NCBI GenBank assembly: GCA_964628235.1
Contig: CAZVLU010000005.1
Span: 16,296 to 80,295 of the forward strand
Length of the DNA stretch: 64,000 nt
Origin: an uncultured Rhizobium sp.
GTDB lineage: Bacteria; Pseudomonadota; Alphaproteobacteria; SMXQ01
Direction of reading: 5' to 3'
In this document: piece by piece, positions 10,071-59,319 of the stretch
Layout of the letters: the number at the start of each line of letters is the position of its first letter
Numbering within the stretch: the first letter of the stretch is position 1
Notes under the pieces: generated by a model
Database searches by the model: none
What the model was told of the DNA's origin: nothing
What the model saw: the letters and a program-made list of their open reading frames with translations, nothing else
Translations under genes and position numbers: made by a program

Positions 10071-10259
10071 GGAACTCTCCGTTTAAATGACTGTTCCCGA
10101 TGCTAACGGCGCGGCAATCAAAATGCTGCGACGCAAAACATCCATCATAAAACGTCCATATCTATGGCAAAGACGATCACAACGTCGCGCGGGCAAGCGC
10201 GTCGCGCGTTCAATGCGGGTTTGAACGCGTCATCGATTCGGCAAGTTGTGAGTGAAAAT

Positions 10260-10336
10260 GGTCGGGACGATAGGATTTGAACCTACGACCCTCAGACCCC
10301 CAGTCTGATGCGCTACCAGGCTGCGCTACGCCCCGA
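10260..10336 (-). tRNA. tRNA-Pro (anticodon GGG)
   Basis: Reverse complement CGGGGCGTAGCGCAGCCTGGTAGCGCATCAGACTGGGGGTCTGAGGGTCGTAGGTTCAAATCCTATCGTCCCGACCA folds as cloverleaf; anticodon loop CTGGGGG; CCA end; coordinates hand-counted (+/-1). Confidence 0.85.
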
Positions 10337-28144: not shown

Positions 28145-29284
28145 CTATTTTTCCACCGCCACGAGCTTGAATTTCCCCGATCGGATAGCTTCGATCATCG
28201 CCGCTTCGGTCTGGCTGTCGGGCGCCGTGGACTGCGAGATCTGATTTACCGCGTCGAGCGACGCCTTGGGGCAAAGGTGGCCGTAGGTCCGCTCGACCAT
28301 GTCGACCGACATTTCGAGGGTCTTCGACACGGTCCAAACCGAAACGCCATTTTTAAGCATGATCGTCGCCGCCGTGTGGCGCATGACATGCGGACTGACA
28401 TTCGGCACCTTGGCCTGCCGCGCCAGAGCCTTGAAATTTTTGTAGAGGTCTGCGTCGCTGTCGAGCACAAAGTCGGAAATGCGCTCCTTGTAGGCTTGCT
28501 CCAGCACGTTCCGCAGGGTGCGCGACATCGCCACGACGGCCCGTCGCTTCTTCGTTATCTTCCGCCCCGGCACGTTGTAGTCGATCATGCCGGCGGAAAA
28601 GTCGACGCGCGACCACTGGAGCTGTTGCACCGCCGTCTTGCGCGCGCCGGTTTCGCGCGTCAGCCAGTAAAAACGCTCGATCCGCGAGAGCCGGCCGTCA
28701 CGCCGGCGCGTCTTGATAGCGGCCGCCGCCAGGCGCTCCAGCTCTTCCGGCTCCAGCCAGCGCGCACGGGCTGCGTTTTTCGGCGGGAGGTCGAAGGCGG
28801 GCACGTCGCCCGCCGGTATGAGCTTGCGTTTCCGGTCTGCGCACCAATTGAACATGGCGACCAGCATGAGCAATTCGCTCCGCACGGTCGAGCGCATGAC
28901 GCCCGAGCTGGAGCCGAGCTTGCCGCTGACGCGCTTATCCTCGTAGGCGTCGACGGCGTCCTGATTGACCTCCGGGTAGAGCAGCCGGCCGAAGTGCCTT
29001 TTCAGTCGGCGCCCGACGCGGCGGAGCGGCCCGATCGAGAGCGAGTTTTTTTCCAGGTGCTTCTTCTCGTAGACGTCCCAAAGATCTTCGACCGTGTAGA
29101 CATCGCTTGGGGCTGCGCCCTGCCCCATCAAGAGCCACTGGCCGAAGAAAGCCTTCGCAGCGCCCAAATCCTTCGTGCGCGTGCTGACGCGCTTGCTGCG
29201 TCCTCGTTTGCCCTTGGGGCTTGGTTCGGTCCAGTGAACGTACTGGACGCCGTTTTTGTCGGGCTTGAGGTAGGGCGCTGACAT
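28145..29284 (-). CDS. tyrosine-type site-specific integrase
   Basis: 379 aa; C-terminal catalytic region HVMRHTAATIMLKNGVSVWTVSKTLEMSVDMVERTYGHL. Confidence 0.9.
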   Translation of the reverse strand: MSAPYLKPDKNGVQYVHWTEPSPKGKRGRSKRVSTRTKDLGAAKAFFGQWLLMGQGAAPSDVYTVEDLWDVYEKKHLEKNSLSIGPLRRVGRRLKRHFGRLLYPEVNQDAVDAYEDKRVSGKLGSSSGVMRSTVRSELLMLVAMFNWCADRKRKLIPAGDVPAFDLPPKNAARARWLEPEELERLAAAAIKTRRRDGRLSRIERFYWLTRETGARKTAVQQLQWSRVDFSAGMIDYNVPGRKITKKRRAVVAMSRTLRNVLEQAYKERISDFVLDSDADLYKNFKALARQAKVPNVSPHVMRHTAATIMLKNGVSVWTVSKTLEMSVDMVERTYGHLCPKASLDAVNQISQSTAPDSQTEAAMIEAIRSGKFKLVAVEK

Positions 29285-31365: not shown

Positions 31366-31464
31366 CGTTGTATGTCGGTTGTATGATGCTGACAGACACC
31401 GCCAGACGTTTTGTTCCTGCTTTCACGCTTTCCGGCTCTACCGAGGCCCACCTTGCCCGCACCA

Positions 31465-32823
31465 ATGCCGCACCAGATCGTAGGCGCCCGCTTTCTTGCA
31501 GACCGCCCCGCGGCGCTGCTCGCAGACGAACAGCGCGTCGGCAAAACAGCGGCCGCGATAATTGCGGCGGACTACATCTTCGCCGGCAGCATTCTCGTCG
31601 TCACCAAGGGCTCGGCGCGGGCCAATTGGGGCCGCGAGGTCCGCGAGTGGCAGTCCCTCCCCCGCTCCGTTCAGGTGCTCTACGCAGGCCACGAGAAGAT
31701 AACCGACGCGGCGGTCGTGGTCGTCGGGTGGGGCATGGTCTACGACAAGCGCGTGCTCAAAGCGCTTCTGGCGCGCAATTGGGACGTGCTCATTCTCGAC
31801 GAGAGCCACGAGGCCAAGAACCCCGAGGCAAAGCGAACGAAGGCCGTCTACGGCTCGACCCTGGCGCCGAATCTCCCGCACGCGCCGAAGGGCCTTATCG
31901 AGCGCGCCGGGCATACCTGGTCGCTGTCCGGCACGCCGGTTCCGAACGCCCCGAACGACCTCTTCCCGATGCTGCGCGCGATGGCGCCGGCACGGTTGGC
32001 CGCCGACGAGGCGAAAAACTGGCCCGACGTCTCGACCTACGACCGTTTCGTAAAGCGCTTTTGCGTCGTCCGACCGAAATTCATCAACGGCCGGCGTATC
32101 GACGTCATCGTCGCGGGGAAAAACCTCGAAGAATTGAACGCCCGCCTGGAGGGGTTTTGGCTCCGCCGCACGCAGCAGGACGTCGGCATCGGCAAGCCGC
32201 TGTTCAGCCTCTTCACAGTCACGGCCGGCGACTACGGCAGCGACGCGCTGAAAGAAGCGCTTGAGGAGATCGGGCCGCGTGCGGCCGCCATCCTCGAAGC
32301 GGCCGAGACTGGCTCGCGCCTGGACGCCGAAGATGAAATGCACCTCGGCACTTTGCGGCGCGTCACTGGCGAGATCAAAGCTCACGCGGTCGTCGAGGCG
32401 ATCAAAGACGAGCTGGACGACGGTCTCGATCGCATTGTCCTCATGGCCTGGCACACGAACGTCATCGAAACGCTGCGCGAGGGGCTTCAAGCCTATGGCG
32501 TCGTCGTTCTCGACGGCCGCACGCTGCCGACGAAACGACAGACGCCCGTCGATATGTTCACGAGCGGCCTCTCGCGCGTTTTCATCGGCCAAATCCAAGC
32601 CGCCGGCGAGGCGATAGACCTCTCCGCAAGCTGCAACCTCATGTTCGTCGAGCCTTCCTTCATCCCGAAGGACATGAGCCAGGCCGCGCTACGGATCACC
32701 AATCACACGCAGAAGCGCCAGGCTCTCGTCCGCGTCTGCGCGCTCGAAGGCAGCATCGACGAGGCTCTAATGCGGATTCTCACCCGCAAAGTTTCCACCA
32801 TTAAACAGATCATGGAGAGTTAG
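31465..32823 (+). CDS. SNF2-family DEAD/DEAH-box helicase
   Basis: MPHQIVGARFL; Walker A DEQRVGKTAAAI; DESH box VLILDESHEAKNP; C-terminal helicase domain. Confidence 0.85.
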   Translation: MPHQIVGARFLADRPAALLADEQRVGKTAAAIIAADYIFAGSILVVTKGSARANWGREVREWQSLPRSVQVLYAGHEKITDAAVVVVGWGMVYDKRVLKALLARNWDVLILDESHEAKNPEAKRTKAVYGSTLAPNLPHAPKGLIERAGHTWSLSGTPVPNAPNDLFPMLRAMAPARLAADEAKNWPDVSTYDRFVKRFCVVRPKFINGRRIDVIVAGKNLEELNARLEGFWLRRTQQDVGIGKPLFSLFTVTAGDYGSDALKEALEEIGPRAAAILEAAETGSRLDAEDEMHLGTLRRVTGEIKAHAVVEAIKDELDDGLDRIVLMAWHTNVIETLREGLQAYGVVVLDGRTLPTKRQTPVDMFTSGLSRVFIGQIQAAGEAIDLSASCNLMFVEPSFIPKDMSQAALRITNHTQKRQALVRVCALEGSIDEALMRILTRKVSTIKQIMES

Positions 32824-33684: not shown

Positions 33685-33874
33685 CGAAAAGCTCGTCGAC
33701 GCCTTGGAGGCGACCTCGAACATGCTCTACGGCATGGCCGCGACCGAAAAGATGTCCGGCAAGCTGCGGAGCACCATGCGGCTGCAAGCGCAGAAGCTCG
33801 AATGCATCGTTGCCGACGCGCGCAACGCGCCGCCTGACGACGAGCCCGTGAATGGTGCGACCTATGAGCACTAG
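33677..33874 (+). CDS. hypothetical small protein
   Basis: 65 aa, coupled to neighbours. Confidence 0.3.
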   Translation: MTDEKLVDALEATSNMLYGMAATEKMSGKLRSTMRLQAQKLECIVADARNAPPDDEPVNGATYEH

Positions 33875-35147
33875 GCAGGTCGACCCCTCCCCGCACGCGA
33901 CATGGGCCGCGTCGTCGACAGCCCGCAATTGGGCCTGCTCGGGCGCGCTCGCGTTGGGGGCGAAGATCCCCGAGCCGCCGACCAATTTCGCGGCTGCCTG
34001 GGGGACGGCGTGTCACACCGTCAGCGAGGAGAGCCTTCGCAACAAAACCGACCCGAACGTCTTTCTCGACGAGGTGCTTGAAGTCGAGACGCACAAAATC
34101 GAGGTCGACGAGGAGCTTGTCGAAACGGCCCGCGAATACATCGACTATGTTCGCGACCGTCTCGCCGCCTACAAAGCCGAGACGGGGCTCGACGACGCCG
34201 TGCTCTACGTCGAGCAGTATTTCTCGCTCAAAAAGCTCAACCCGCCCTTCGACGCCGGCGGCACGGGCGACGCCGTGCTGTGGTTTCCTGCCTGGCGCCT
34301 GCTCGAAGTCGTCGACCTCAAGGGCGGCCGCGGCGTCGTCGTCGAGGCGCACGGTAACAAGCAGGCCCGCACCTACGGTCTCGGCTCCGTCCTGACCAAT
34401 CCGGGCCTCGACATCGAGCGCGTCATGTCGACGATCGTTCAGCCACGCGCCGGGCACAAAGACGGTCGAATCCGCTCCGAAACATACCATGTCGCCGACC
34501 TCATGGAGTGGACGTCCGAGCTTGTCGCCCGCATGGCGCGCGCCAAGCGCGCCAGCGACGAATACGAGAAAATCACGGGCGACGTCTCGCGCGAAGCCTG
34601 GGGTGACGAATTTCTCGAAGCCGGCGAGCATTGCCGCTTCTGCAAGGCAATGGCGATCTGTCCGGCGATCGAAAAGAAAGCGATGGCATCGGCCGGTTTG
34701 TGGTTCGACGACCTCGACCAGCCGAAGCTGAAAAATACGCCCGACGAGCTGGACCCGGTCAAGCTGGCCCAAAAGCTCGACGCGGCCGATCTGGTGCAGG
34801 ATTTCTTTAACGCCTGCCGGGCGATGGCGCATCGCATGGCGGACAGCGGCGTCGAGATCCCCGGCTACCAGCTCGTCGAGAAGATCGGCAACCGCAAGTG
34901 GAAGGGCGAAGACGACCAGATCCGCGAAAATCTGTTCCTCAAGCTCGACCTCACCGACGACGAAATTTTTGCCCGGAAGCTGCGGAGCCCGGCGCAGATC
35001 GAGAAGGTGCTCGGCGCCAAACGCAAGAACCTGATCGCCGACCTCGTACACCGCGAGGTGACGGGCACGAATCTCGTGCGCGTCGACAAGACGACCCGGC
35101 CGGCCGTGGCGGCCGCCGTCAACAAGCATTTCACGCCAATCGACTAG
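33864..35147 (+). CDS. DUF2800-type PD-(D/E)XK (Cas4-like) phage exonuclease
   Basis: N-terminal WAASSTARNWACSGALAL; C-terminal Cys cluster EHCRFCKAMAICP; classic partner of DUF2815. Confidence 0.75.
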   Translation: MSTRQVDPSPHATWAASSTARNWACSGALALGAKIPEPPTNFAAAWGTACHTVSEESLRNKTDPNVFLDEVLEVETHKIEVDEELVETAREYIDYVRDRLAAYKAETGLDDAVLYVEQYFSLKKLNPPFDAGGTGDAVLWFPAWRLLEVVDLKGGRGVVVEAHGNKQARTYGLGSVLTNPGLDIERVMSTIVQPRAGHKDGRIRSETYHVADLMEWTSELVARMARAKRASDEYEKITGDVSREAWGDEFLEAGEHCRFCKAMAICPAIEKKAMASAGLWFDDLDQPKLKNTPDELDPVKLAQKLDAADLVQDFFNACRAMAHRMADSGVEIPGYQLVEKIGNRKWKGEDDQIRENLFLKLDLTDDEIFARKLRSPAQIEKVLGAKRKNLIADLVHREVTGTNLVRVDKTTRPAVAAAVNKHFTPID

Positions 35148-35160
35148 AAGGAGAAAGCCT

Positions 35161-35781
35161 ATGGCCTCGCGTTCCGAAGACCTCAAGACGTGCCTTGTCC
35201 GCGCCGCTTTCACGCAGGGTTTGTTCGAGCTGCAAACCACGCAGAACGGCAAGAAGCAATGGGGCTGCTCGCTGCTCTTTCCCAAGGGCACCGACATGAC
35301 GCCCTACGAGAATGCCGCTCTGGAGGCCGCCAAGGCCGAGTGGGGCGACAAGGCCGTGCAGCTCATCAAGGACGGCCTGGTGCATAACCCGTTCCTCGAC
35401 GGCGACGGGCCGCAGGGCAAGAGCAAGAAGACCGGCGAGCCGCACGCGGGCTTCCCCGGCACCGTGTTTCTGCGCGTGATTTCCGGCGAAGACTACCGCC
35501 CGAAACTCGTCAACAAGAAGGTGCTGCCGATCACCGGCAAGGACGAGCTTTATTCCGGCTGCTACGTCTACGCCGTCATCAACGCTTTCACCTGGGAGAA
35601 CAAGGAGAAGGGCAAGGGCATCAGCTTCGGCGTGTCGATGATCCAGTTCGCCAAGGATGGCGAACGGCTCGGTGGCAGCGGCGGAGGCGATCCCGAGGAC
35701 CACTTCGAGAAGATCGAAGACGAAGGCGAAGCCCCCGCCGCGACCAAGACGGGCAAGGGCGCCGGCGGCCTCTTCGGCTAA
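35161..35781 (+). CDS. DUF2815 phage ssDNA-binding protein
   Basis: 206 aa; RLIFPKG-like LLFPKGTDMTPYE...SGCYVYAVINAFTWEN. Confidence 0.75.
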   Translation: MASRSEDLKTCLVRAAFTQGLFELQTTQNGKKQWGCSLLFPKGTDMTPYENAALEAAKAEWGDKAVQLIKDGLVHNPFLDGDGPQGKSKKTGEPHAGFPGTVFLRVISGEDYRPKLVNKKVLPITGKDELYSGCYVYAVINAFTWENKEKGKGISFGVSMIQFAKDGERLGGSGGGDPEDHFEKIEDEGEAPAATKTGKGAGGLFG

Positions 35782-35866
35782 CTGCGCCTGGAGTGTCTGA
35801 TAAATCTTGCCGGCGGCATACAAAGCCGCCGGCAGGGCAACCCTCAAAATGCACAGGAGAATTTCT

Positions 35867-36199
35867 ATGGACAACAGCCACGGCGCCGACGCCGCCATTT
35901 ACAAGCAAGGCCCCCGCCAAGGCGTCTACGCCTCCGAGCCGGCCTTACAAGCCGGTAGCGCACGCCGCACGCCGTTCCATGCGCTCCATGACGTCATGGA
36001 ACGGCTCGACCAAGTCGAAAGCCGTCTGCTCACCATCGCTGCGCGGCTCGCGGGCACGTTCCCCTTGCCGGCGCTCGACGAACCGAAAGCCAGCGGCGAC
36101 GGCATCTTCCACGCGCTCGAAGTCGGCGCGCAGACCGCCTCCAGCCGTCTCGATCGCATGAACGGCGCCATGTCCGTCATCGAGAGCAACCTCCCGTAA
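35867..36199 (+). CDS. hypothetical phage protein
   Basis: RBS aggag; 110 aa. Confidence 0.4.
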   Translation: MDNSHGADAAIYKQGPRQGVYASEPALQAGSARRTPFHALHDVMERLDQVESRLLTIAARLAGTFPLPALDEPKASGDGIFHALEVGAQTASSRLDRMNGAMSVIESNLP

Positions 36200-36263
36200 G
36201 ACCACGAAACGGCGGCCCGCCTCGGCCGCCGTTTTTCCTCCCTACAGCACACAGGAAACCATC

Positions 36264-36995
36264 ATGGAATTGACCCCGAACGATGTCCGCTTCGTCGTGC
36301 AGCGTCTCCCGCGCGACGTTCGCGACATGCTGTCGCACCACCCCCGCAGGCTCTATGTCGGAGGCGGTTTCGTCCGCGCTGTCGTCGCCGGCGAGACGCC
36401 CAACGACATCGACGTTTTCGGCCCGAGCGCCGAATATCTCGAAAACGTCGCGAACCTGCTCGCCGCCAATCGGCCAGGCTCGAAGCTGCACAAATCGAAA
36501 AACGCGATCACCCTGCTCACGCCCGAGCGCATGGCGGTCCAATTCATCACGCGCTGGACCTTCGAGAAGCCGCGCGACGTCATCCGCTCCTTCGACTTCA
36601 CCGTCTGTCAAGCGGCCGTCTGGCGCGCCGGCAGCCAGTCCAACGCGAAGTGGGAGTCGGAAGTCGGCCCCGACTTCTATGTCGACCTGGCCGGACGGCG
36701 GCTCGTCTACACGAGCCCGATCCGCGAGGAGGAGCCGGGCGGCTCCATGCTGCGCGTCATCAAATACGTCAAACGCGGCTACTCGATCCAGGTCGCCAGC
36801 CTCGGCGCCGTGATCGCCCGCCTCACGAGCAAGGTCCGTGACAGTCACCTCGCCGGCGACGAGGCCGGCGCGGCCCTCTGCATCGCCGGGCTTCTACGCG
36901 AGGTCGACCCGCTCTTCGTGATCGACGGTTTCGAGATCGTCGACGACCACGCGCCGATCGAAGGCGACGTGCAGGAGGGCCTTGCCAATGGTTAA
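36264..36995 (+). CDS. Pol-beta superfamily nucleotidyltransferase (CCA-adding/poly(A) polymerase head-like)
   Basis: GGGFVRAVVAGETPNDIDVFG matches GGxVRDxLLG...DIDI motif of the PolyA_pol/CCA-enzyme head domain. Confidence 0.5.
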   Translation: MELTPNDVRFVVQRLPRDVRDMLSHHPRRLYVGGGFVRAVVAGETPNDIDVFGPSAEYLENVANLLAANRPGSKLHKSKNAITLLTPERMAVQFITRWTFEKPRDVIRSFDFTVCQAAVWRAGSQSNAKWESEVGPDFYVDLAGRRLVYTSPIREEEPGGSMLRVIKYVKRGYSIQVASLGAVIARLTSKVRDSHLAGDEAGAALCIAGLLREVDPLFVIDGFEIVDDHAPIEGDVQEGLANG

Positions 36996-37284
36996 GCCCT
37001 CGGCGACGAGCGACGGAAAGCCCCGTCCGAACACTGGCGGCGTTGCCGCCGACCAGCTTCGCAGCTTCATCGAGCGCGTCGAGCGCTTGGCCGAAGAGAA
37101 GGCGACGCTCACCGAAGACATTCGCGAGGTCTTCGCCGAAGCCAAAATGACCGGCTTCGACACGAAGGCCATGCGTCAGCTCATCAAGCTCCGCAAGATG
37201 GAAAGCGCCAGCCGCGAGGAGCAGGCCGAAATCCTGAAACTCTACGCCCACGCGCTCGGCATGGACGAAGGAGTTTTCCTTTGA
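36988..37284 (+). CDS. GapR/DUF2312-family DNA-binding protein
   Basis: QLRSFIERVERLAEEKATLTEDIREVFAEAKMTGFDTKAMRQLIKLRKM...EILKLYAHALGM. Confidence 0.8.
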   Translation: MVKPSATSDGKPRPNTGGVAADQLRSFIERVERLAEEKATLTEDIREVFAEAKMTGFDTKAMRQLIKLRKMESASREEQAEILKLYAHALGMDEGVFL

Positions 37285-37652
37285 GCGCCGCGGGCTGGAT
37301 CGGCGTCGACCTCGACGGCACGCTCGCCATGTACGACCACTGGCGCGGGCCGGATCATATCGGCGAACCGATCCCCGCAATGGTCGAGCGCGTCAAAAGA
37401 TGGCTCGCCGAAGGCGTCGAAGTGCGGATCTTCACCGCGCGCGTCTCTGACGATGGCACGCCGGAACGGATGGCCGACGCAATGGTCGCGCGCAACGCCG
37501 TGAAAGCTTGGTGCGCGAAGCACCTCGGGCGCGTCGTCCCCGTAACCAACATCAAAGACTACGCGATGTTGGAGCTTTGGGACGACCGCGCGGTTCAGGT
37601 CGTCATGAACACCGGGGCTCCGGTCGGCGTGTCGACGCGAGGTCTGTCATGA
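37281..37652 (+). CDS. HAD-superfamily phosphatase-like protein
   Basis: HAD motif I GVDLDGTLA; RIFTAR; small (123 aa). Confidence 0.45.
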   Translation: MSAAGWIGVDLDGTLAMYDHWRGPDHIGEPIPAMVERVKRWLAEGVEVRIFTARVSDDGTPERMADAMVARNAVKAWCAKHLGRVVPVTNIKDYAMLELWDDRAVQVVMNTGAPVGVSTRGLS

Positions 37653-37915
37653 GCGGGCAAACGCTCGATGGGCTATTCGCCGACATGGCGGCGAACGGGC
37701 TCCAACTCGTCGGCTTGAACGAGCTGGACAACGGCCAGTGGCACGCCGCCTTGAAAGAAAAAGGCAGCGACTACAGCAAGCTCGACGGCTTCGACCACCA
37801 ACGCGGCAAAACCGCTGTGGAAGCCGTCGCGCGGGCTCTCAAAGAGGCCGGAACCGCACGCGCCGAGCGCGCCCCGGCGCCGCCGGCCAAAGCAAGCGCG
37901 GGCGTCTTTGACTAA
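37649..37915 (+). CDS. hypothetical phage protein
   Basis: 88 aa; ATGA overlap with upstream stop. Confidence 0.35.
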   Translation: MSGQTLDGLFADMAANGLQLVGLNELDNGQWHAALKEKGSDYSKLDGFDHQRGKTAVEAVARALKEAGTARAERAPAPPAKASAGVFD

Positions 37916-38247
37916 TGCCTGTCTCGGCTCGGATCATGCGGGCGCGCGGCCTTGCCTGCCCCTACTGCGGGCAGCGGATGGACGGGCGCAAGCGCAAGCA
38001 CCGCAACAGTCCGAGCCGAGATCACGTCTACCCGAGGAGCAAAGGCGGCCGCCGAACAATTATCGTCTGCAACGGTTGCAACAGCGACAAAGGCAACCTG
38101 ACGCTCGACGAGTGGGCGCTGATCCTCCTGCGGCGTCGAGATCGCCGCGCTCAATTCGTCATGTTCATAGCGCGCGGCCTGACCGACGGCCGGTTGCGTC
38201 TCACGACCGGAAATGTCATCGGCCTCGCCGACGGGGTGTTCGCATGA
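37915..38247 (+). CDS. HNH endonuclease
   Basis: CPYCG...RDHVYPRSKGG...CNGCNSDKGN. Confidence 0.75.
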   Translation: MPVSARIMRARGLACPYCGQRMDGRKRKHRNSPSRDHVYPRSKGGRRTIIVCNGCNSDKGNLTLDEWALILLRRRDRRAQFVMFIARGLTDGRLRLTTGNVIGLADGVFA

Positions 38248-38690
38248 TCCTCGGCAGAGACGAACGCGGCCGTTTCCTGGGGCGTTGGACGAACGACCCG
38301 TTCGACCCGCGCGGCTGGCCGCCCGACGAGGAATGCCGGATCTGGCTCGACCCGGAAAACGGCATCTTCTGCGTCGTCGACGAGGTCGATTTTCAATGGG
38401 CGCTGCAATGGGCCTGGAGCGCGACGCCGAACAGCACGCGCCTCAAGTGGTATGCGACGCGCTCGACCCGCCTCCGCGGCTCTGACGGCCCCCAGGTCAA
38501 AGTCTACCTGCACAAAGAAATTCTGCTCCGCCATGCCGGGCCGGCGCCGAGCGAGAAACATATCATCGGCGATCACCTCGACGGCGACAGTTTGAACGAC
38601 CGTCGCGGCAACCTGCGATGGGCGACGCCAAAAGAGAACCGCCACAACCGGGGCGGCGCGTATCTGCGCCAGCTTCAAATGAGGGTCTGA
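38244..38690 (+). CDS. HNH (HNH_3-type) homing endonuclease
   Basis: VYLHKEILLR...IIGDHLDGDSLNDRRGNLRWATPKENRHN. Confidence 0.7.
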   Translation: MILGRDERGRFLGRWTNDPFDPRGWPPDEECRIWLDPENGIFCVVDEVDFQWALQWAWSATPNSTRLKWYATRSTRLRGSDGPQVKVYLHKEILLRHAGPAPSEKHIIGDHLDGDSLNDRRGNLRWATPKENRHNRGGAYLRQLQMRV

Positions 38691-38906: not shown

Positions 38907-39602
38907 TTGATCGAAATTCTTCAAGGCGACTGCCTGGCGGAGATGAAAAAGCTTCCCTCCGACAGCGTCGATGTCGTCGCAACAGACCCGCCGTTCTCCA
39001 GCGGAACGCGGAAAGAGGGCGCGAAGGGCCTGCGTAAAAGCATGAGGCGCGGCGTCGCCAGCAATGCTTGGTTCGGCTCCGACAGTCTCACGACAAATGG
39101 CTTTCTTTGGCTCATGCGGTCGTGCGCCGTCGAGTGGCAGAGACTTCTAAAGCCAGGCGGTCACGCGCTTGTTTTTATCGACTGGCGCATGATGTCGGCT
39201 CTTGCCGGCGCGCTAGAAAGCGCCGATCTGCGCCACGCCGGACTCCTCGTATGGGACAAAACCTATTTCGGGATGGGAACTACCTTTAGAAATCAGCATG
39301 AGCTGATCCTACACTTCACGAAAGGCGTCCCGCCGGAGCCTGCGCGGCGCGATGTCGGGAACGTGCTCGCCTTCAAGCCCATACGCAACGGCCTCCACCC
39401 GACGGAAAAGCCGACAGAGCTTTTAGTCGAATTGCTCTCCGTCGTTGCTTTCAAAGGCGCGGTCGTCTTAGACCCCTTCGCCGGCTCCGGCGCTACGCTG
39501 GTCGCAGCGCAGCGTCAAGGTTGCAGCGCCATCGGCATTGAGCGTGAACAGCACTACGTCGACATCATGCGAAAGCGAACCGCAGGAGACGTTTTCGCAT
39601 GA
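38907..39602 (+). CDS. site-specific DNA methyltransferase (N6-adenine/N4-cytosine, beta class)
   Basis: TTG start; GDCL; catalytic DPPF; AdoMet motif DPFAGSGAT. Confidence 0.85.
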   Translation: MIEILQGDCLAEMKKLPSDSVDVVATDPPFSSGTRKEGAKGLRKSMRRGVASNAWFGSDSLTTNGFLWLMRSCAVEWQRLLKPGGHALVFIDWRMMSALAGALESADLRHAGLLVWDKTYFGMGTTFRNQHELILHFTKGVPPEPARRDVGNVLAFKPIRNGLHPTEKPTELLVELLSVVAFKGAVVLDPFAGSGATLVAAQRQGCSAIGIEREQHYVDIMRKRTAGDVFA

Positions 39603-41755
39603 GCCTTAAACTCGATTGGGAGACGCGCAGCGACATCGACCTGCTAAAGCGCGGCGTTTACGTCTACTGCGAAAGCCCCTACACCGACGCGCTGCTCGCC
39701 TCCTATCGCATCGGCGACGGCCCGCTGCGGCGCTGGAAGCGCGGCCAGCCCTGCCCGGACGACATTCGCGGGCATGTCGCCGCCGGCGGCGAGATCAAAG
39801 CCCACAACGCCGCCTTCGAGCGCCTGATCTGGTGGAAGATCATGCACGCCAGGCACGGCTGGCCGAAACCGCGCATCGAGCAATTTCGCTGCACAGCCGT
39901 AACGGCGGCCGCGATGAGCTTGCCGCGAAGCCTTGATCGGCTCGGCGCCGCGCTCGACCTGAAAGTAAAGAAAGACAAAAAGGGCAAAGCCCTGATTAAC
40001 AAGCACTCGAAGCCGTGCGGCTGGCGTCGAGACGAAGCCGGCCGCGACGTGCCGATTTTCGACGAAGACCCCGTGTCGCTGGAAGAGTTTCACGACTATT
40101 GCGACACCGACGTCATCACCGAAGAGGAGGCCGACGCGCGCCTCGTGCCGCTCTCCGAACAGGAACAGGCGGTCTACGTCCTGAACGAGAAAATCAACGA
40201 TCGCGGTATCCGGCTCGACGTGAAGTCCGCCCGCGCGGCCGTCGTCCTTATCGAGCGCGCCAAGGCAAAACTCGACCGCGAGATGAGGCTGACGACAGAC
40301 GGCTACGTCAAAGCCTGCACCAACGTCAAAGCGCTGGCCGAGTGGATCGAGGCTCAAGGCGTCGCGTTGGCGTCCGTCGCCAAGGAGGACATCGAGGAGC
40401 TGCTTGACGAGGTCGACGACCTCCCCGAGCGCGTCCATCGCGCGCTGGAGCTGCGCCAGGAAGCCGCCAAGACCTCCGTGTCGAAGATCGTTACCATGCT
40501 GGAGCGCGTGAACAACGATGGCCGAATCCGGGGCGTCTATCTCGACCACGGCGCCGGGCAGACCGGCCGCTTTTCGAGCCGCGGGGTCCAGGCGCACAAT
40601 ATGCCGACCTACCGGCCCGAGTTCGAGAGCGCGCACCTGCGCCTCGACTTGCTCTTCGAGGCGATCCGCAGCGGCCAGCCCGAAGCCCTGGAGTTCCTTT
40701 ACGGGCCGAAGCTCGGCCGCCCCCTCCACCTGCTTTCCGACGCCGTGCGCAGCTTCCTATGGGCCGCGCCGGGCCACGAAATGATCGTCGCCGACTACTC
40801 CTCGATCGAGGGCCGTCTCGCGGCCTATATCGCGGGCGAGGAGTGGAAGCTCGAAGCCTTCCGTAAATATGACCGCGGCGAAGGCCCCGGCATGTACGAG
40901 CTGACGGCGGCGCAGATCTATGACATCGACGTCGCCGACGTCGACAAGCCGAAACGCGCCGTCGGTAAGGTCGGCGAATTGTCGATGGGCTATCAAGGCG
41001 GCGTCGGCGCGCTCTCGAAAATGGCGCGGCAGAAAAAGCTCAAGCTGCATACGGTTTTCCCCTCCGTGTGGGCGGCCGCGCCGCAGGAGCGCCGCGAGGA
41101 AGCCGAATCGCGCTTCGACGAGCGCTTGCAGAAGAACGACGAGACCGCGAAAAAGCTCGGCCGCGAAGGCTGGATTGCCGGCGAGCTGGTCAAGGTGGGC
41201 TGGCGCCTGGCGCACCCGGCCATAACGAGCGCCTGGAAGCTGCTCGAAGAAGCCGTCTTTGCGGCCGTCACCGAGCCAGGCACGCAGCATCACGCGCTCG
41301 GCGTGACCTACCTCGTTGCGCACGGCTTCCTCTGGTGCCAGCTCGCCAGCGGCCGCTGCCTTGCTTACGGCCGGCCGCGCGTTCAGGAAGTCGAGGCGCC
41401 TTGGGCCGACAAGACCGTCGAGCCGAAGAAGCGCGAACAGAAAACCTCCGTGACGGTGCTCGGCGTCGACAGCCAGACCGAGAAGTGGGTCCGCTCGCCG
41501 ATCTATGGCGGCTCGCTGTTCAACAACGTCGTGCAAGGCACGGCGCGCGACGTGCTGGTGCATGGCATGTTCAACGTCGAGGCCGCCGGCTACCCGATCG
41601 TTCTGCACACGCACGACGAGGTCGGCGCCGAATTGCCGATCGGCGTCGGCGATCCCGAAGAGTTCGGGCGCATTCTGAATCGTCTGCCCGCTTGGTGCGC
41701 GGATCTGCCGCTCACCGCCGCAGCCTTCAAGACGAAACGCTACAGAAAAGATTGA
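39599..41755 (+). CDS. family-A DNA polymerase with 3'-5' exonuclease domain
   Basis: 718 aa; exo motifs LDWETRSDIDL, AHNAAFE; polymerase region RAVGKVGELSMGYQGG, HTHDEV. Confidence 0.85.
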   Translation: MSLKLDWETRSDIDLLKRGVYVYCESPYTDALLASYRIGDGPLRRWKRGQPCPDDIRGHVAAGGEIKAHNAAFERLIWWKIMHARHGWPKPRIEQFRCTAVTAAAMSLPRSLDRLGAALDLKVKKDKKGKALINKHSKPCGWRRDEAGRDVPIFDEDPVSLEEFHDYCDTDVITEEEADARLVPLSEQEQAVYVLNEKINDRGIRLDVKSARAAVVLIERAKAKLDREMRLTTDGYVKACTNVKALAEWIEAQGVALASVAKEDIEELLDEVDDLPERVHRALELRQEAAKTSVSKIVTMLERVNNDGRIRGVYLDHGAGQTGRFSSRGVQAHNMPTYRPEFESAHLRLDLLFEAIRSGQPEALEFLYGPKLGRPLHLLSDAVRSFLWAAPGHEMIVADYSSIEGRLAAYIAGEEWKLEAFRKYDRGEGPGMYELTAAQIYDIDVADVDKPKRAVGKVGELSMGYQGGVGALSKMARQKKLKLHTVFPSVWAAAPQERREEAESRFDERLQKNDETAKKLGREGWIAGELVKVGWRLAHPAITSAWKLLEEAVFAAVTEPGTQHHALGVTYLVAHGFLWCQLASGRCLAYGRPRVQEVEAPWADKTVEPKKREQKTSVTVLGVDSQTEKWVRSPIYGGSLFNNVVQGTARDVLVHGMFNVEAAGYPIVLHTHDEVGAELPIGVGDPEEFGRILNRLPAWCADLPLTAAAFKTKRYRKD

Positions 41756-43820: not shown

Positions 43821-44125
43821 GACAGCCCGTGACATACCGCCGGCGCGCGCCGAAGACGCCAGGGCTGCACGACGAAGTGCGGATCTCGCTCAACGACGTC
43901 CACCTAGCGCACCGCGAGGCGGCTCTCGTCGCCGGCATGATGGCCGGCCACTGTCGAAAGCGGCCGCTGCTCGAATTTATGTTCGGCGCCGACAACCGCG
44001 TCAGCGATCGCTACCTCCGCGAGCTGGTGGGGCGCACCCGTAAGCGCCTCGCCGGGTCCGGCTTCACCATCACCGACTACGAACCCCGCGGCTACGCGAT
44101 CATTCTGGAGGCCAAGACACCATGA
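43817..44125 (+). CDS. hypothetical phage protein
   Basis: 102 aa coupled ORF. Confidence 0.35.
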   Translation: MRQPVTYRRRAPKTPGLHDEVRISLNDVHLAHREAALVAGMMAGHCRKRPLLEFMFGADNRVSDRYLRELVGRTRKRLAGSGFTITDYEPRGYAIILEAKTP

Positions 44126-45960
44126 AGCGTAAAATTCTAGTGGCGGATCTGCTCTGCGGCGCGGGCGGCTCCTCGACCGGCGCGGCGCAAGCGCTCGTCG
44201 AGCTTGGCCTCGATATGGAGCTGGTCTGCGTCAATCACTGGAATGTCGCGATCGAGACCCACAAGGCGAATCACCCGCACGCCCGGCATTACTGCCAGGA
44301 CATATCGACTGTCCGGCCGCACCTTGTGGTGCCCGAGGGCTATCTCGACCTGCTCATGGCGAGCCCCACCTGCACGCACCACTCCGTCGCGCGCGGCGGA
44401 AAGCCGACCAGCGACCAGCAGCGCTCCGACCCTTGGCATATCATAACCTGGCTGACCGAGCTGCGGGTCAAGCGAATCATGATCGAAAACGTATGGGAGT
44501 TCGTGAAGTGGGGTCCGGTCGACCCGCGCAGCGGCAAGCCCATCAAGTCGCGGCAGGGCGAATACTTCAACGCCTGGATCGAGACCATGCGCCGGCTAGA
44601 CTTCGAGCTGGAGTGGCGCAAGCTGAACGCGGCCGACTACGGCGAAGCGACGACGCGGCAGCGCTTCTTTCTCCTCGGCCGCAGCGACCGCAAGCGTATC
44701 GCCTGGCCCTCGCCGACGCACACGAAGCGGCAACCCGAAGCGCCGGCCGGTCTGCACCCTTGGCGGCCGGCGCGCGAGATCATCGACTGGAACATCAAGG
44801 GCCGGTCGATCTTCACGCGCAAGAAGCCGCTCGCGCCGAAGACCCTCGCGCGGATCTATGCGGGCGCCGTCAACCTTCAATGGCCCGAGCCGTTCCTCGT
44901 CATCTTGCGAAACCATATGGGCGCGCAATCCGTCGACGCGCCGTTGCCGACTGTGGCGGCGAACGGAACGCATATCGGCCTGGCGCAGCCCGTCGTCATG
45001 AACGGCCGGAAGGGCTCGAAGGCCAAAGGCGTAGAGACAGCGCCGATCCCGACGCTCGACACCAAGGGCGGCGTATGGCTCGCAGAGCCGGCGCTGATCG
45101 CCACGGCCCACGGAAACGCCGCGACGGAGAAGAACCCGAACAAGCGGCGCGCCAAAGGCGTCAGCGAGCCCTTGGGGGCGATCCACGCGAGCGGCGGTAA
45201 CTTCGCCGTCGCCGAGCCTCTGATCCTCTCGCAGCAAGCCAGCGGTCGGCCACGTTCGGCCGAGGAGCCGCTACCGACGATCTTGACCGGCGGCGCCGGC
45301 ACGGCGGAGCGGCCGGGCTGCGCGCGTCACGCTGTCGTGCAGCCTTTCGTCCTGTCCCGGCTCGGAAACGGCGCGCCCCGCCCGACCGACCAGCCGACGC
45401 CTACGCAGGTCGCGACGCACAGCCACGTTCTAATCGCGCCTTACTACAGCAGCGGCTCGGGCGAAACGTGCAAGAGCGCCGACGTGCCGCTCTCCTCCCT
45501 GACGACTAAGGCGCGCTTCGGCATGGTCATCCCCGTCACGCACAGCGGCGACGAGAGCAACCGCTCGCGCGACGTCGAGACCGACGGCTTGCCGACCGTA
45601 ACGGGCGCCAATCGCGGCGAGCTGGCTTTTATAACAGCCGCCTTCGGCGAGCGCGAAGGGCAGGCCCCGCGGGTTCATGATCTCGGAGAGCCGGCGCCGA
45701 CGATCTGCGCGACCGGCGGCAGCGTCAACCTGGTCGAGCCGACAGAGAGCTACGACATTCTATTTCGGATGCTCGAACCGCATGAGCTGGCGGCCGCGAT
45801 GGGCTTCAACGACGAAGACGCGACATACGCATTCAGCGGAAACAAGACCGAGCAGATAAAGCAAATCGGAAATGCCGTGTCCGTCCGGCAGTCAAAGGCC
45901 CTCGTCAAAGCGATGCTGGCCGACAGCGCCGAGCCGAGCAAGGCGGAGCGAGCGGCGTAG
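44122..45960 (+). CDS. DNA (cytosine-5)-methyltransferase
   Basis: Motif I LLCGAGGSS, catalytic-Cys region ASPTCTHHS, ENV motif IMIENVWEF, motif X IGNAVSV; long variable region. Confidence 0.8.
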   Translation: MKRKILVADLLCGAGGSSTGAAQALVELGLDMELVCVNHWNVAIETHKANHPHARHYCQDISTVRPHLVVPEGYLDLLMASPTCTHHSVARGGKPTSDQQRSDPWHIITWLTELRVKRIMIENVWEFVKWGPVDPRSGKPIKSRQGEYFNAWIETMRRLDFELEWRKLNAADYGEATTRQRFFLLGRSDRKRIAWPSPTHTKRQPEAPAGLHPWRPAREIIDWNIKGRSIFTRKKPLAPKTLARIYAGAVNLQWPEPFLVILRNHMGAQSVDAPLPTVAANGTHIGLAQPVVMNGRKGSKAKGVETAPIPTLDTKGGVWLAEPALIATAHGNAATEKNPNKRRAKGVSEPLGAIHASGGNFAVAEPLILSQQASGRPRSAEEPLPTILTGGAGTAERPGCARHAVVQPFVLSRLGNGAPRPTDQPTPTQVATHSHVLIAPYYSSGSGETCKSADVPLSSLTTKARFGMVIPVTHSGDESNRSRDVETDGLPTVTGANRGELAFITAAFGEREGQAPRVHDLGEPAPTICATGGSVNLVEPTESYDILFRMLEPHELAAAMGFNDEDATYAFSGNKTEQIKQIGNAVSVRQSKALVKAMLADSAEPSKAERAA

Positions 45961-57675: not shown

Positions 57676-59319
57676 ATGTCTAGCTCCGCTTCCAGCAGCA
57701 CTCGACCGATCCGGCGCCCCGGCGTGCCGGCCGTCGTTCGCGCGCGCGCCGACGATGTCGAGCTGGCCGAGATCAATAAGCGGATCAAGCTTCTCGAACG
57801 TCAACAGCGCGCCCTCGAAGCGCATGACGATCTGCTCGTCTACACCAAATTCACCATGCCCCACCCCGAGGCGCCGAACGACGTCAACCGTTCGCGCTAC
57901 GAGGACGAGCTGTTTCACCGCGAGGTGGCGAAGGCGCTCGAAGCTGTCGAGCGCGGCGAAATCGTCCAGCTCATCTATTGTATGCCGCCCCGCCACGGCA
58001 AGACCGAGATGGCGACGAAGCGCATGGCCGCCTGGTGTAGCGGCCGGCATCCCGATTGGGACGTCGCGGTCGCTTCCTACTCGGATACGATGGCGCAGGA
58101 CATGGGCGCCGACACGCGCGCTATCCTGACGTCGGCGCAGCACAAGCAGGTGTTCCCGAGCTATCGCCTGCGGCGCGGCGGAAACGCCAAGGATAACATT
58201 CAAACCGATCGGGGCGGCCGTATCGTTTTCGTCGGCCGCGGCGGCGCGCTCACGGGCCGCGGTATGCATATCGGCCTCGGCGACGATCTGTTTAAGGACC
58301 ACGAAGAGGCGCGGTCGCAGGCCATTCGAGACCAGGCTTGGAATTGGTTCACGAAGGTCTTCATGACTCGCCGAATGGGCCTCAAGCTGGTCATCCTGAC
58401 GATGACGCGCTGGCATAGCGACGACATCATCGGCCGCCTCACCGACCCGGAAAATCCCTACTACAACGCCATCGAGGCGAAAAAATGGAAGATTATCCGC
58501 CTGCCGGCCATCGCCGAAGACGACGACCCGCTCGGCCGCACGCCTGGCGAGGCGTTGTGGCCGGCGCGCTACGACCTGGATTTTCTTGAGAGCCAGCAGC
58601 GCCTCGATCCTCTCGGCTTCGCCTCGCTCTACCAGCAGCGGCCGAGCGTCGCCGACGGCGTGCTGTTTCGTCGCGAGAACGTGCGCTACTACAAGCCGAG
58701 CGAGCTTCCCGAGGATCTGCGGATCTATTGCGCGAGCGATCACGCCGTTTCGACCGGCCAGCGCAACGACCCGACCGTTTTGCTGAAAGTCGGCATCGAC
58801 CGTCAGAGCAACATCTATCTGCTCGAATGCTACTGGCAGAAAGTGAAAACCGACGTCGCTGTCGAAGCGATGCTCGAAATGGGCCGGGGCAACATGCGCC
58901 CGCTGATCTGGTGGGCGGAAAAAGGTCATATCTCGAAGTCGATCGGGCCATTCCTCTACAAGCGCATGGTGGAGACGCAGACTTACCTGAATATCCGCGA
59001 AGTGCCGCCGATCGGCGACAAGGAGCAACGCGCGCAGTCGATCGCCGCGCGGCACGGCATGGGGAAGGTGTTTTTCCCGATTGGCGCGCTTTGGACCGAG
59101 CGCGCGATCGAGGAAATGCTCGCCTTCCCGAACGGCACGCACGACGATTTCGTCGACACGCTGGCTTACATCGGCCTTGGCTTGCAGAGCCAATTCAAAG
59201 CCGGCGCGCCCGCGAAGAAAGAAAACGAGCTGCCGAAATTCGGATCGCTGGCTTGGGTCAAGTACATGGACAAATTCAAGCGGATGCAGCGCGAGCAGAC
59301 CGCCGCCGGAGGCTTTTAG
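57676..59319 (+). CDS. terminase large subunit
   Basis: Walker A CMPPRHGKTEMATK; C-terminal nuclease domain; Terminase_6-like. Confidence 0.9.
   Translation: MSSSASSSTRPIRRPGVPAVVRARADDVELAEINKRIKLLERQQRALEAHDDLLVYTKFTMPHPEAPNDVNRSRYEDELFHREVAKALEAVERGEIVQLIYCMPPRHGKTEMATKRMAAWCSGRHPDWDVAVASYSDTMAQDMGADTRAILTSAQHKQVFPSYRLRRGGNAKDNIQTDRGGRIVFVGRGGALTGRGMHIGLGDDLFKDHEEARSQAIRDQAWNWFTKVFMTRRMGLKLVILTMTRWHSDDIIGRLTDPENPYYNAIEAKKWKIIRLPAIAEDDDPLGRTPGEALWPARYDLDFLESQQRLDPLGFASLYQQRPSVADGVLFRRENVRYYKPSELPEDLRIYCASDHAVSTGQRNDPTVLLKVGIDRQSNIYLLECYWQKVKTDVAVEAMLEMGRGNMRPLIWWAEKGHISKSIGPFLYKRMVETQTYLNIREVPPIGDKEQRAQSIAARHGMGKVFFPIGALWTERAIEEMLAFPNGTHDDFVDTLAYIGLGLQSQFKAGAPAKKENELPKFGSLAWVKYMDKFKRMQREQTAAGGF

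What the first reader, a model, noticed from the sequence alone, without database searches (positions are those of the whole stretch)
36264..37652. Pol-beta nucleotidyltransferase (CCA-enzyme head-like) plus HAD phosphatase in the replication module: possible RNA/tRNA 3'-end repair pair
The 36264 product has the GGxVRxxxxG...DIDVF signature of class-II tRNA nucleotidyltransferase/poly(A) polymerase heads. The 37281 product has the DxDGT HAD motif, as in the 3'-phosphatase domain of T4 Pnkp. A phosphatase removing 3'-phosphate ends plus a template-independent NTase is the logic of tRNA repair against anticodon or acceptor-end nucleases. In this genomic context it could be an anti-defence function.
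Basis: inference. Interest (0 to 1): 0.5.

Follow-up and report, generated by a model that had tools for sequence, protein, structure and literature searches.

The report
Gad2-like nucleotidyltransferase and unlinked small HAD phosphatase
Two real prophage genes: one is a short relative of Gad2, a phage protein that blocks the Gabija defence, and the other is a tiny phosphatase of an unnamed phage family, but they are not a conserved tRNA-repair pair.

Summary
Both genes are real, intact and at the stated coordinates, in the early/replication operon of a high-GC prophage.

**Nucleotidyltransferase (36264-36995, 243 aa)**
- It carries GGGFVRAVVAGETPNDIDVF.
- Its model folds like the head and neck of class-II CCA-adding enzymes (Foldseek E 7.5e-9).
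- By sequence it is a short member of Pfam PF26128 'Gad2', the Gabija anti-defence family.
- It has 26% identity to the Gad2 N-terminal domain and shares PHROG families with it.
- It lacks Gad2's C-terminal ~230 aa and the tRNA-binding body and tail of CCA enzymes.
- It has no acidic residue where class-II enzymes carry the third catalytic carboxylate.
- Ser replaces the base-templating Arg.

**HAD protein (37281-37652, 123 aa)**
- All four HAD motifs are invariant.
- It belongs to a very large phage family with no Pfam model.

**The pairing**
- A GapR gene separates the two genes.
- 0 of 93 loci with a nucleotidyltransferase homologue hold the HAD.
- 0 of 80 loci with a HAD homologue hold the nucleotidyltransferase.

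The pairing and the tRNA-repair reading are not supported. An anti-defence role for the nucleotidyltransferase is plausible by homology only. These are new members of known kinds, of modest interest.

The parts
36206..36235 (+). 12-bp G+C-rich hairpin followed by a U-run (terminator- or attenuator-like). It lies between the preceding 130-aa ORF and the nucleotidyltransferase start.
   Evidence: RNA fold -24.2 kcal/mol, z -3.98 against shuffles. Sequence read. The simple terminator scan did not list it.
36264..36995 (+). 243-aa single-domain nucleotidyltransferase. It is a short member of the Gad2 family (Pfam PF26128) with a class-II CCA/poly(A)-polymerase-like head and neck fold. Residues 219-243 are predicted disordered.
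   Evidence: PF26128:Gad2; pLDDT 88.6.
36982..37284 (+). GapR-like DNA-binding protein gene lying between the two genes of the finding and overlapping both. The gene call on identical contigs starts at 36988.
   Evidence: Pfam GapR_DNA-bd E 2.1e-31 and NCBIfam PRK13694 E 3.9e-32. Gene calls.
37281..37652 (+). 123-aa minimal HAD-superfamily phosphatase with all four catalytic motifs, from a large phage family that has no Pfam model.
   Evidence: phrog_415 E 2.4e-9, phrog_1238 E 1.1e-7; pLDDT 88.3.

Best explanation
These are two unrelated accessory genes that move independently. In this one prophage lineage they happen to sit in the same tightly packed early/replication operon: SNF2 helicase, DUF2800 exonuclease, gp2.5-like SSB, [nucleotidyltransferase, GapR, HAD, two HNH genes, MTase], family-A DNA polymerase.

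**Gene 1.** It is the catalytic core (head plus neck) of a class-II-like nucleotidyltransferase and belongs to the Gad2 family. The most likely role, which is inferred, is counter-defence. An NTP-dependent enzyme, using the invariant D48/D50 metal site, would neutralise a Gabija-type (OLD-nuclease/UvrD-helicase) or related DNA-end-sensing defence. It would do so by nucleotidylating a nucleic-acid 3' end or a defence protein. It is not built like a tRNA CCA-adding enzyme.

**Gene 2.** It is a stand-alone Mg2+-dependent phosphomonoesterase of the HAD superfamily that works without a dedicated partner. Its substrate is unresolved. Candidates are a polynucleotide 3'-phosphate, as for T4 Pnkp, or a small phospho-sugar or nucleotide.

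**Shown:** gene integrity, family and fold assignments, motif conservation, and the lack of co-occurrence.
**Inferred:** anti-Gabija activity, catalysis, and both substrates.
For: **Gad2 membership**
- The precomputed Pfam hit PF26128 'Gad2' is listed for this protein and for every one of the 120 listed homologues.
- BLASTP against SPbetaL7 Gad2 gives 26% identity over 149 columns, E 2e-9.
- hhalign gives probability 95.6%, E 1.1e-8.
- Five PHROG families are shared: 4400, 27100, 18122, 16176 and 1614.
- Gad2 is an experimentally shown Gabija inhibitor predicted to be a nucleotidyltransferase (preprint 10.1101/2023.05.01.538930).

**Fold**
- The AF2 model has pLDDT 88.6.
- The top 22 Foldseek PDB hits are class-II CCA- or A-adding enzymes, and nearly all 44 hits with E<=1e-3 are class-II CCA/A-adding enzymes or PAP I.

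**No pairing**
- 0 of 80 viral and 0 of 13 genomic nucleotidyltransferase loci hold the HAD.
- 0 of 80 HAD loci hold the nucleotidyltransferase.
- The commonest neighbour cluster of the HAD occurs in only 9 of 80 loci.
- Nucleotidyltransferase neighbours are recombination and replication genes (DUF2800 12/93, SSB 10, GapR 9, a cluster I read as RecT-like 9, PolA 8), never a phosphatase, kinase or ligase.

**HAD**
- Invariant motifs.
- HAD fold.
Against: - The window protein covers only the N-terminal ~150-160 residues of Gad2 at 26% identity. It lacks the C-terminal ~230 aa, which may be needed for Gabija inhibition.
- No short-form member has been tested in the literature I could search.
- Gad2's own mechanism is unknown (PMC12904381).
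- No acidic residue lies at the class-II third-carboxylate position (A81/T83), so catalysis is not assured.
- Whether the host carries Gabija is unknown. The eight large host-side ORFs scanned gave no Gabija hit in PADLOC.
- Close packing and translational overlap of nucleotidyltransferase, GapR and HAD means they are co-expressed here. An opportunistic cooperation in this phage cannot be excluded.
Confidence: 0.6

Rival explanations
1. The HAD removes 3'-phosphate or 2',3'-cyclic-phosphate ends left by an anticodon or acceptor-end nuclease. The nucleotidyltransferase then rebuilds the tRNA or RNA 3' end. Together they form a two-enzyme RNA repair and anti-defence pair.
For: - The nucleotidyltransferase has a CCA-enzyme-like head and neck fold.
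- phrog_415 'polynucleotide kinase' scores E 2.4e-9.
- The genes are co-transcribed with overlapping boundaries.
- A review table lists tRNA degradation as the effect of the OLD system, whose nuclease is related to GajA (PMC12904381).
Against: - There is no co-occurrence in 173 loci.
- GapR lies between the genes.
- The nucleotidyltransferase has no body or tail for tRNA binding. It also lacks the third carboxylate, the two Arg of RRD and the templating Arg.
- No ligase or kinase is found nearby in any locus.
- The HAD-Pnkp similarity is generic (hhalign probability 15.6%).
- The position matching T4 Arg176 is variable in the family.
Confidence: 0.07
2. The nucleotidyltransferase is a housekeeping accessory of the phage recombination and replication machinery rather than an anti-defence factor. 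For example, it could tail or cap DNA 3' ends for the exonuclease/annealase or primer handling.
For: In other phages it lies beside DUF2800 exonuclease plus SSB, or beside clusters I read by eye as RecT-like and YqaJ-like exonuclease genes (not scanned against any library), and near family-A polymerase.
Against: - It is present in only a minority of phages with this replication module, and its position varies.
- The only family member with a phenotype is an anti-Gabija gene that is dispensable without Gabija.
Confidence: 0.15
3. The nucleotidyltransferase is a catalytically impaired binder that uses the CCA-like scaffold to sequester a nucleotide, a DNA or RNA end, or a defence protein.
For: - The canonical third carboxylate is replaced by invariant A81/T83.
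- Motifs B and D are degenerate.
Against: - G34, G35, D48, D50, D111, R164 and K167 are invariant across the family including Gad2. That pattern is typical of a maintained active site.
- Other acidic residues (D111, E156/E157) could complete the metal site.
Confidence: 0.1
4. The HAD is a small-molecule phosphatase acting on a sugar bisphosphate or on (d)NMP. It would serve nucleotide-pool or DNA-modification chemistry, as the 123-aa phage enzyme AfhF or GmhB do.
For: - Foldseek top hits are 2obb, AfhF (9iqw), GmhB and 1xpj.
- phrog_1238 scores E 1.1e-7.
- AfhF is a Mg-dependent arabinose-1,5-bisphosphate phosphatase of similar size (PMC13326640).
Against: - No sugar-activation or DNA-glycosylation genes lie near it here or in 80 other loci.
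- Sequence similarity to 1xpj is not significant (E 1.5).
Confidence: 0.4

Closest known systems
Gad2 (Gabija anti-defence 2) of Bacillus phage SPbetaL7, Pfam PF26128
   Same: - The N-terminal nucleotidyltransferase domain is homologous: 26% identity, E 2e-9, hhalign probability 95.6%.
- Shared invariant residues are GG, DxD, Q93, F-D111-F-T, R164, K167 and D215.
- They share PHROG families.
- Both are encoded by phages or prophages.
   Different: - 243 aa against 400 aa: the whole C-terminal part of Gad2 is absent.
- The short clade keeps an acidic pair (E156/E157, 'ED' in the consensus) that Gad2 lacks.
- Anti-Gabija activity has been tested only for the long form.
Class-II tRNA nucleotidyltransferases and bacterial poly(A) polymerase I (Pfam PolyA_pol PF01743)
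   Same: - Head and neck fold (Foldseek E 7.5e-9, TM 0.54 on the query).
- Motif A GGxVR...DxD.
- The Asp of motif B in an 'xxDFT(V/I)' context.
- The neck helix LLRVxKF, comparable to MMRAVRF.
   Different: - Below the Pfam threshold (14.6 against 23 bits).
- No body or tail.
- The third carboxylate (Bst E79, Tm D99, AaL E74; PMC3925840) aligns to A81 or T83.
- RRD becomes SFD.
- The templating Arg of EDxxR becomes Ser161.
T4 polynucleotide kinase-phosphatase, 3'-phosphatase domain (PDB 5uj0/1ltq)
   Same: - HAD core with DxDGT.
- A Ser/Thr-x-Arg motif II (T52-A-R54 against S-G-R213).
- A DD motif IV.
   Different: - No kinase domain.
- hhalign probability is only 15.6%.
- No HAD_PNKP Pfam hit.
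- The position matching Arg176 is not conserved.
- No RNA ligase partner.
Small stand-alone HAD phosphatases of 121-126 aa: 1xpj (V. cholerae), 2obb (BT_0820), phage HY126 AfhF (9iqw)
   Same: - Same size and capless architecture.
- AfhF is also phage-encoded.
   Different: - Sequence similarity is not significant.
- There is no arabinosylation or heptose pathway context.

Membership tests
Gad2 family (Pfam PF26128) | Significant match to the family model or to Gad2 itself | tested here: met
   - The precomputed PF26128:Gad2 hit is unmarked, meaning E<=1e-5, for this protein and for every one of the 120 listed homologues.
- BLASTP against SPbetaL7 Gad2 gives E 2e-9. hhalign gives 95.6%.
- PHROG families are shared.
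- The local Pfam copy lacks this model: Gad2 itself finds nothing in it.
Gad2 family (Pfam PF26128) | Full-length architecture of the characterised protein (~400 aa, nucleotidyltransferase plus a C-terminal region) | tested here: not met
   The protein is 243 aa. The alignment covers Gad2 residues 14-165 only. Most relatives are 220-260 aa.
Gad2 family (Pfam PF26128) | Inhibition of Gabija defence | not testable with these tools
   This has been shown only for SPbetaL7 Gad2 and a 394-aa Brevibacillus homologue.
Class-II CCA-adding enzyme / poly(A) polymerase (PolyA_pol) | Pfam PF01743 above the gathering score | tested here: not met
   14.6 bits against a cut-off of 23, E 0.042.
Class-II CCA-adding enzyme / poly(A) polymerase (PolyA_pol) | Head and neck fold with motif A (GGxVR...DxD) | tested here: met
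   Foldseek E 7.5e-9 to 5hc9. G33-35, R38, D48 and D50 are invariant.
Class-II CCA-adding enzyme / poly(A) polymerase (PolyA_pol) | Third catalytic carboxylate on the beta-sheet (Tm D99, AaL E74, Bst E79) | tested here: not met
   It aligns to A81 (HMMER against human TRNT1) or T83 (hhalign against BstCCA). There is no conserved acid in that strand. Both alignments are weak, so a non-canonical third ligand such as D111 is not excluded.
Class-II CCA-adding enzyme / poly(A) polymerase (PolyA_pol) | Motif B (RRD) and motif D (EDxxR, the base template) | tested here: not met
   RRD becomes S109-F110-D111. Arg157 of Bst EDALR aligns to the invariant S161. An acidic pair is kept.
Class-II CCA-adding enzyme / poly(A) polymerase (PolyA_pol) | Body and tail domains that bind the tRNA acceptor/T-arm | tested here: not met
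   The protein ends at residue 243. Residues 219-243 have pLDDT below 50. [quoted passage not shown]
HAD-superfamily phosphatase | Motifs I-IV (DxDxT, S/T, K, DD) on a Rossmannoid core | tested here: met
   D10, D12, T14, T52, K92 and D102 are invariant, and D101 is at least 90% conserved. The fold matches HAD enzymes.
T4 Pnkp-type polynucleotide 3'-phosphatase (Pfam HAD_PNKP PF25109) | Specific sequence or structure relationship to the Pnkp phosphatase domain | tested here: inconclusive
- hhalign probability is 15.6%.
- PF25109 matches 3 of 46 family members at best E 0.15, and none matches the window protein.
- phrog_415 'polynucleotide kinase' scores E 2.4e-9.
T4 Pnkp-type polynucleotide 3'-phosphatase (Pfam HAD_PNKP PF25109) | Associated 5'-kinase domain and/or RNA ligase partner | tested here: not met
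   It is a 123-aa single domain. No kinase or ligase cluster appears among neighbours in 80 loci or in the window.
Two-gene functional module (nucleotidyltransferase + HAD) | Conserved co-occurrence or adjacency across genomes | tested here: not met
   0 of 93 nucleotidyltransferase loci hold the HAD, at E<=1e-3 and also at E<=100 with filters off. 0 of 80 HAD loci hold the nucleotidyltransferase. Flanks were +-6 kb.

The most novel reading that the evidence does not exclude
The short Gad2-like enzymes would be template-independent 3'-end nucleotidyltransferases. They would tail or cap nucleic-acid ends, either phage DNA termini or cleaved tRNA, so that an OLD-family/Gabija-type end-sensing nuclease can no longer act. 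That would give the first mechanism for Gad2. In this particular phage the co-expressed HAD would first remove blocking 3'-phosphates, so the two would cooperate opportunistically.
Probability: 0.08. Interest if true: 0.7.

Novelty: new member of a known kind. Interest (0 to 1): 0.3.

Why it matters
Gad2 is a validated Gabija inhibitor whose mechanism is still listed as unknown (PMC12904381).

The 243-aa form described here is much more widespread than the long form. It makes up most of about 1257 clusters at 50% identity, against the 170 long-form homologues reported originally. It is essentially the bare catalytic core, so it is a simpler object for biochemistry.

Three features give concrete handles for testing what Gad2-type enzymes modify:
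- the CCA-enzyme-like head and neck;
- the missing canonical third carboxylate;
- the replaced base-templating Arg.

The HAD belongs to a very abundant phage family (at least 8000 sequences) with no Pfam model and no known substrate.

Neither point changes current understanding, and the attractive repair-pair idea is not borne out.

Tried and rejected
- **PDB sequence searches.** Single-sequence searches for both proteins gave nothing meaningful. Profile searches gave only marginal hits: TRNT1 at E 0.26 and 1xpj at E 1.5.
- **NCBIfam.** No family for either protein. HAD-IIIA scored E 0.014, below its cut-off.
- **PADLOC.** No defence-system model matches either protein.
- **MNT-type antitoxin reading of the nucleotidyltransferase.** It rested on a weak DUF6932 hit (E 0.035) and one JGI name 'antitoxin'. 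I rejected it because the hit is sub-threshold and the fold search favours class-II CCA enzymes.
- **Local Pfam scan for PF26128.** The local copy lacks the model, as Gad2 itself finds nothing. The family assignment therefore rests on the precomputed annotation plus direct comparison with Gad2.
- **hhalign of the HAD family against T4 Pnkp 158-301.** Probability was 15.6%, too weak to claim subfamily membership.
- **Search for a conserved partner of either gene by clustering neighbours.** None was found for the HAD. Only replication and recombination genes were found for the nucleotidyltransferase.
- **Published Nature version of the Gad2 paper.** It is not held, so I could not check whether catalytic mutants were tested.
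- **tRNA genes.** The window has only tRNA-Pro at 10259-10335, outside the prophage.
- **A first DNA search against phages** failed because the query was one base too long, and I did not repeat it.
Full report
**Setting**

The window has 60-67% G+C. From about 28 kb rightwards it is a prophage, with these genes:
- integrase at 28145-29284 (-), followed by an HTH repressor;
- SNF2-type helicase at 31411-32823;
- DUF2800/PD-(D/E)XK exonuclease at 33852-35147;
- Enc34/gp2.5-like SSB at 35161-35781;
- the two genes of the finding, with GapR between them;
- an 88-aa ORF and two HNH endonucleases;
- a DUF7220 protein;
- an N6/N4 DNA methyltransferase at 38907-39602;
- a family-A DNA polymerase at 39599-41755;
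- a 612-aa C5 methyltransferase;
- a Prim-Pol/AAA_25 primase-helicase;
- a pectate-lyase-like protein;
- the large terminase.

The same proteins occur on three metagenome contigs with the same gene calls.

ORF 36264-36995 encodes 243 aa with ...YVGGGFVRAVVAGETPNDIDVFG.... ORF 37281-37652 encodes 123 aa with GVDLDGTLA. Both are conserved proteins and not chance ORFs of high-GC DNA.
- The first has 1051 homologues, and 1257 clusters at 50% identity.
- The second has at least 7992 homologues.
- In 49 close homologues of the first, G33-35, R38, D48, D50, Q93, D111, E156, R164 and K167 are invariant.
- In 46 homologues of the second, all HAD motifs are invariant or nearly so: D10, D12, T14; T52 with R54; K92; D101/D102.

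The genes are not adjacent. A GapR_DNA-bd gene (E 2.1e-31) lies between them and overlaps both. A 12-bp G+C hairpin with a U-run sits just upstream of the first gene.

**What the nucleotidyltransferase is**

The local Pfam copy gives only sub-threshold hits: PolyA_pol at E 0.042 and DUF6932 at E 0.035. The precomputed annotation of this protein and of all its listed homologues is PF26128, which names 'Gad2'. The local Pfam copy lacks that model, since Gad2 itself finds nothing in it.

I therefore took the SPbetaL7 Gad2 sequence from supplementary table 7 of the preprint 10.1101/2023.05.01.538930 and compared it directly.
- BLASTP gives 26% identity over residues 32-175 of the window protein against 29-162 of Gad2, E 2e-9.
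- hhalign of the family alignment against Gad2 gives probability 95.6%, E 1.1e-8.
- Both proteins hit PHROGs 4400, 27100, 18122, 16176 and 1614.

Gad2 is a 400-aa protein. Its deletion makes SPbetaL7 sensitive to Gabija, and AlphaFold predicted a nucleotidyltransferase domain in it. A 2026 review still lists its mechanism as unknown.

The window protein corresponds only to the N-terminal domain. Most of its relatives are 220-260 aa, so it represents a short, single-domain branch of the family. The nearest annotated phage protein is gp58c of Xanthomonas phage FoX4, a 'hypothetical protein' at 52% identity.

**Fold and active site**

The AF2 model is confident: pLDDT 88.6, with disorder after residue 218. 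The top 22 Foldseek PDB hits are class-II CCA- or A-adding enzymes, led by 5hc9 at E 7.5e-9 and TM 0.54 on the query. FAM46/TENT5 and poly(A) polymerase I follow.

Membership of that family fails on several defining features.
- **Third carboxylate.** Class-II enzymes have three catalytic carboxylates: TmCCA D55/D57/D99 and A. aeolicus A-adding enzyme D31/D33/E74 (PMC3925840). By the same spacing (about 37-42 residues after the second Asp of DxD), the corresponding residue in the B. stearothermophilus enzyme is E79; that assignment is my inference, not stated in the paper. HMMER against human TRNT1 places it on A81. hhalign against BstCCA 1-234 (probability 65.5%, E 5.8e-5) places it on T83. 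The strand has no conserved acid in the family or in Gad2.
- **Motif B.** RRD is S109-F110-D111.
- **Motif D.** The base-templating Arg of EDxxR aligns with the invariant S161. An acidic pair (E156/E157) and the following LLRVxKF helix are kept.
- **Body and tail.** There are none.

These alignments are weak, so a non-canonical third ligand such as D111 cannot be excluded. G34, G35, D48, D50, Q93, D111, R164 and K167 are invariant across the family including Gad2, which argues for a maintained active site.

**What the HAD is**

No Pfam or NCBIfam family matches. PHROGs give phrog_415 'polynucleotide kinase' at E 2.4e-9 and phrog_1238 at E 1.1e-7. The AF2 model (pLDDT 88.3) is a minimal capless HAD core.
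- **Foldseek.** It ranks small stand-alone HADs first: 2obb, then the phage arabinose-1,5-bisphosphate phosphatase AfhF (9iqw), then GmhB and 1xpj. All have weak E-values.
- **Sequence.** hhalign against T4 Pnkp residues 158-301 gives only 15.6% probability. That sequence was verified against 5uj0/1ltq.
- **Key arginines.** R54 matches the position of T4 R213. The position matching T4 R176 is variable.

The substrate class is therefore unresolved. A polynucleotide 3'-phosphatase is possible but not specifically indicated.

**Are they a pair?**

No. I collected 80 viral and 13 genomic loci that encode a nucleotidyltransferase relative, each with 6-kb flanks. None contains a HAD-family ORF at E<=1e-3, nor at E<=100 with filters off. 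The only loci with both are the three contigs identical to the window.

In the other direction, none of 80 viral loci encoding a HAD relative contains the nucleotidyltransferase.

Clustering of neighbours points the same way.
- The HAD has no recurrent partner. Its commonest neighbour cluster occurs in 9 of 80 loci.
- Examples with Pfam-annotated neighbours place the HAD beside HD, UDG and PolA genes, or beside unrelated genes.
- The nucleotidyltransferase recurs beside recombination and replication genes: DUF2800 in 12 of 93 loci, SSB in 10, GapR in 9, a cluster I read by eye as RecT-like in 9, PolA in 8 and one I read as a YqaJ-like exonuclease in 8. The two by-eye readings were not scanned against any library.
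- Even the closest nucleotidyltransferase relatives (61-68% identity) with the same DUF2800-SSB-GapR-PolA module lack the HAD.

**Conclusion**

The family-level descriptions are right. The anti-defence guess is plausible for the nucleotidyltransferase, through Gad2 homology rather than through tRNA repair. The repair-pair logic is not supported.

I rate this as new members of known kinds. The remaining open question is what Gad2-type nucleotidyltransferases modify, and this short form would be a convenient system for answering it.

Noticed in passing
window 36982-37284 (+): A phage-encoded GapR-like DNA-binding protein (Pfam E 2.1e-31, NCBIfam PRK13694 E 3.9e-32). It lies between the two genes of the finding and recurs near the nucleotidyltransferase in 9 of 93 related loci.
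   Followed up: partly
window 36206-36235 (+): A 12-bp G+C-rich hairpin followed by UUUUU, 29 nt upstream of the nucleotidyltransferase start (-24.2 kcal/mol, z -3.98). It may be a terminator or attenuator splitting the early operon. The simple terminator scan did not report it.
   Followed up: partly
window 37915-38247 and 38244-38690 (+): Two different HNH endonuclease genes (HNH_5, and HNH_3 by the precomputed annotation) lie back to back with overlapping ends, inside the replication module between the HAD and the methyltransferase.
   Followed up: no
window 38907-39602 and 44122-45960 (+): The prophage carries two orphan DNA methyltransferases, an N6/N4 type of 231 aa and a C5 type of 612 aa. 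No restriction partner was seen, which is consistent with anti-restriction self-methylation.
   Followed up: no
It has no Pfam or NCBIfam model and no recurrent gene neighbour.
   Followed up: partly
Pfam library used by search_protein_families: The local Pfam-A copy lacks PF26128 (Gad2), which the precomputed annotations use. Gad2 itself finds no family in the local copy. A local 'no Pfam hit' is therefore not equivalent to 'no Pfam family'.
   Followed up: yes
window 1309-3540 (+): A host-side 743-aa ORF matches the PADLOC model mad3 (mads_3) at E 1.9e-32. The best stretch covers only residues 628-716, so this is probably a shared domain and not a defence system.
   Followed up: no
window 10259-10335 (-): This is the only tRNA gene in the window (tRNA-Pro, GGG). 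It lies about 18 kb from the integrase, so it is probably not the attachment site. The prophage carries no tRNA genes.
   Followed up: no
window 53933-56386 (+) and 57676-59319 (+): An 817-aa protein with a pectate-lyase-like domain (tailspike or depolymerase type) lies upstream of the large terminase. That is an unusual place for a tail-fibre-like gene.
   Followed up: no
window 35807-36199 and 37649-37915 (+): Two small ORFs (130 aa or 110 aa depending on the start, and 88 aa) flank the nucleotidyltransferase-GapR-HAD block. They match no PHROG family at the 0.001 cut-off (the longer 37508-37915 reading also found no Pfam-A or PHROG family).
   Followed up: partly
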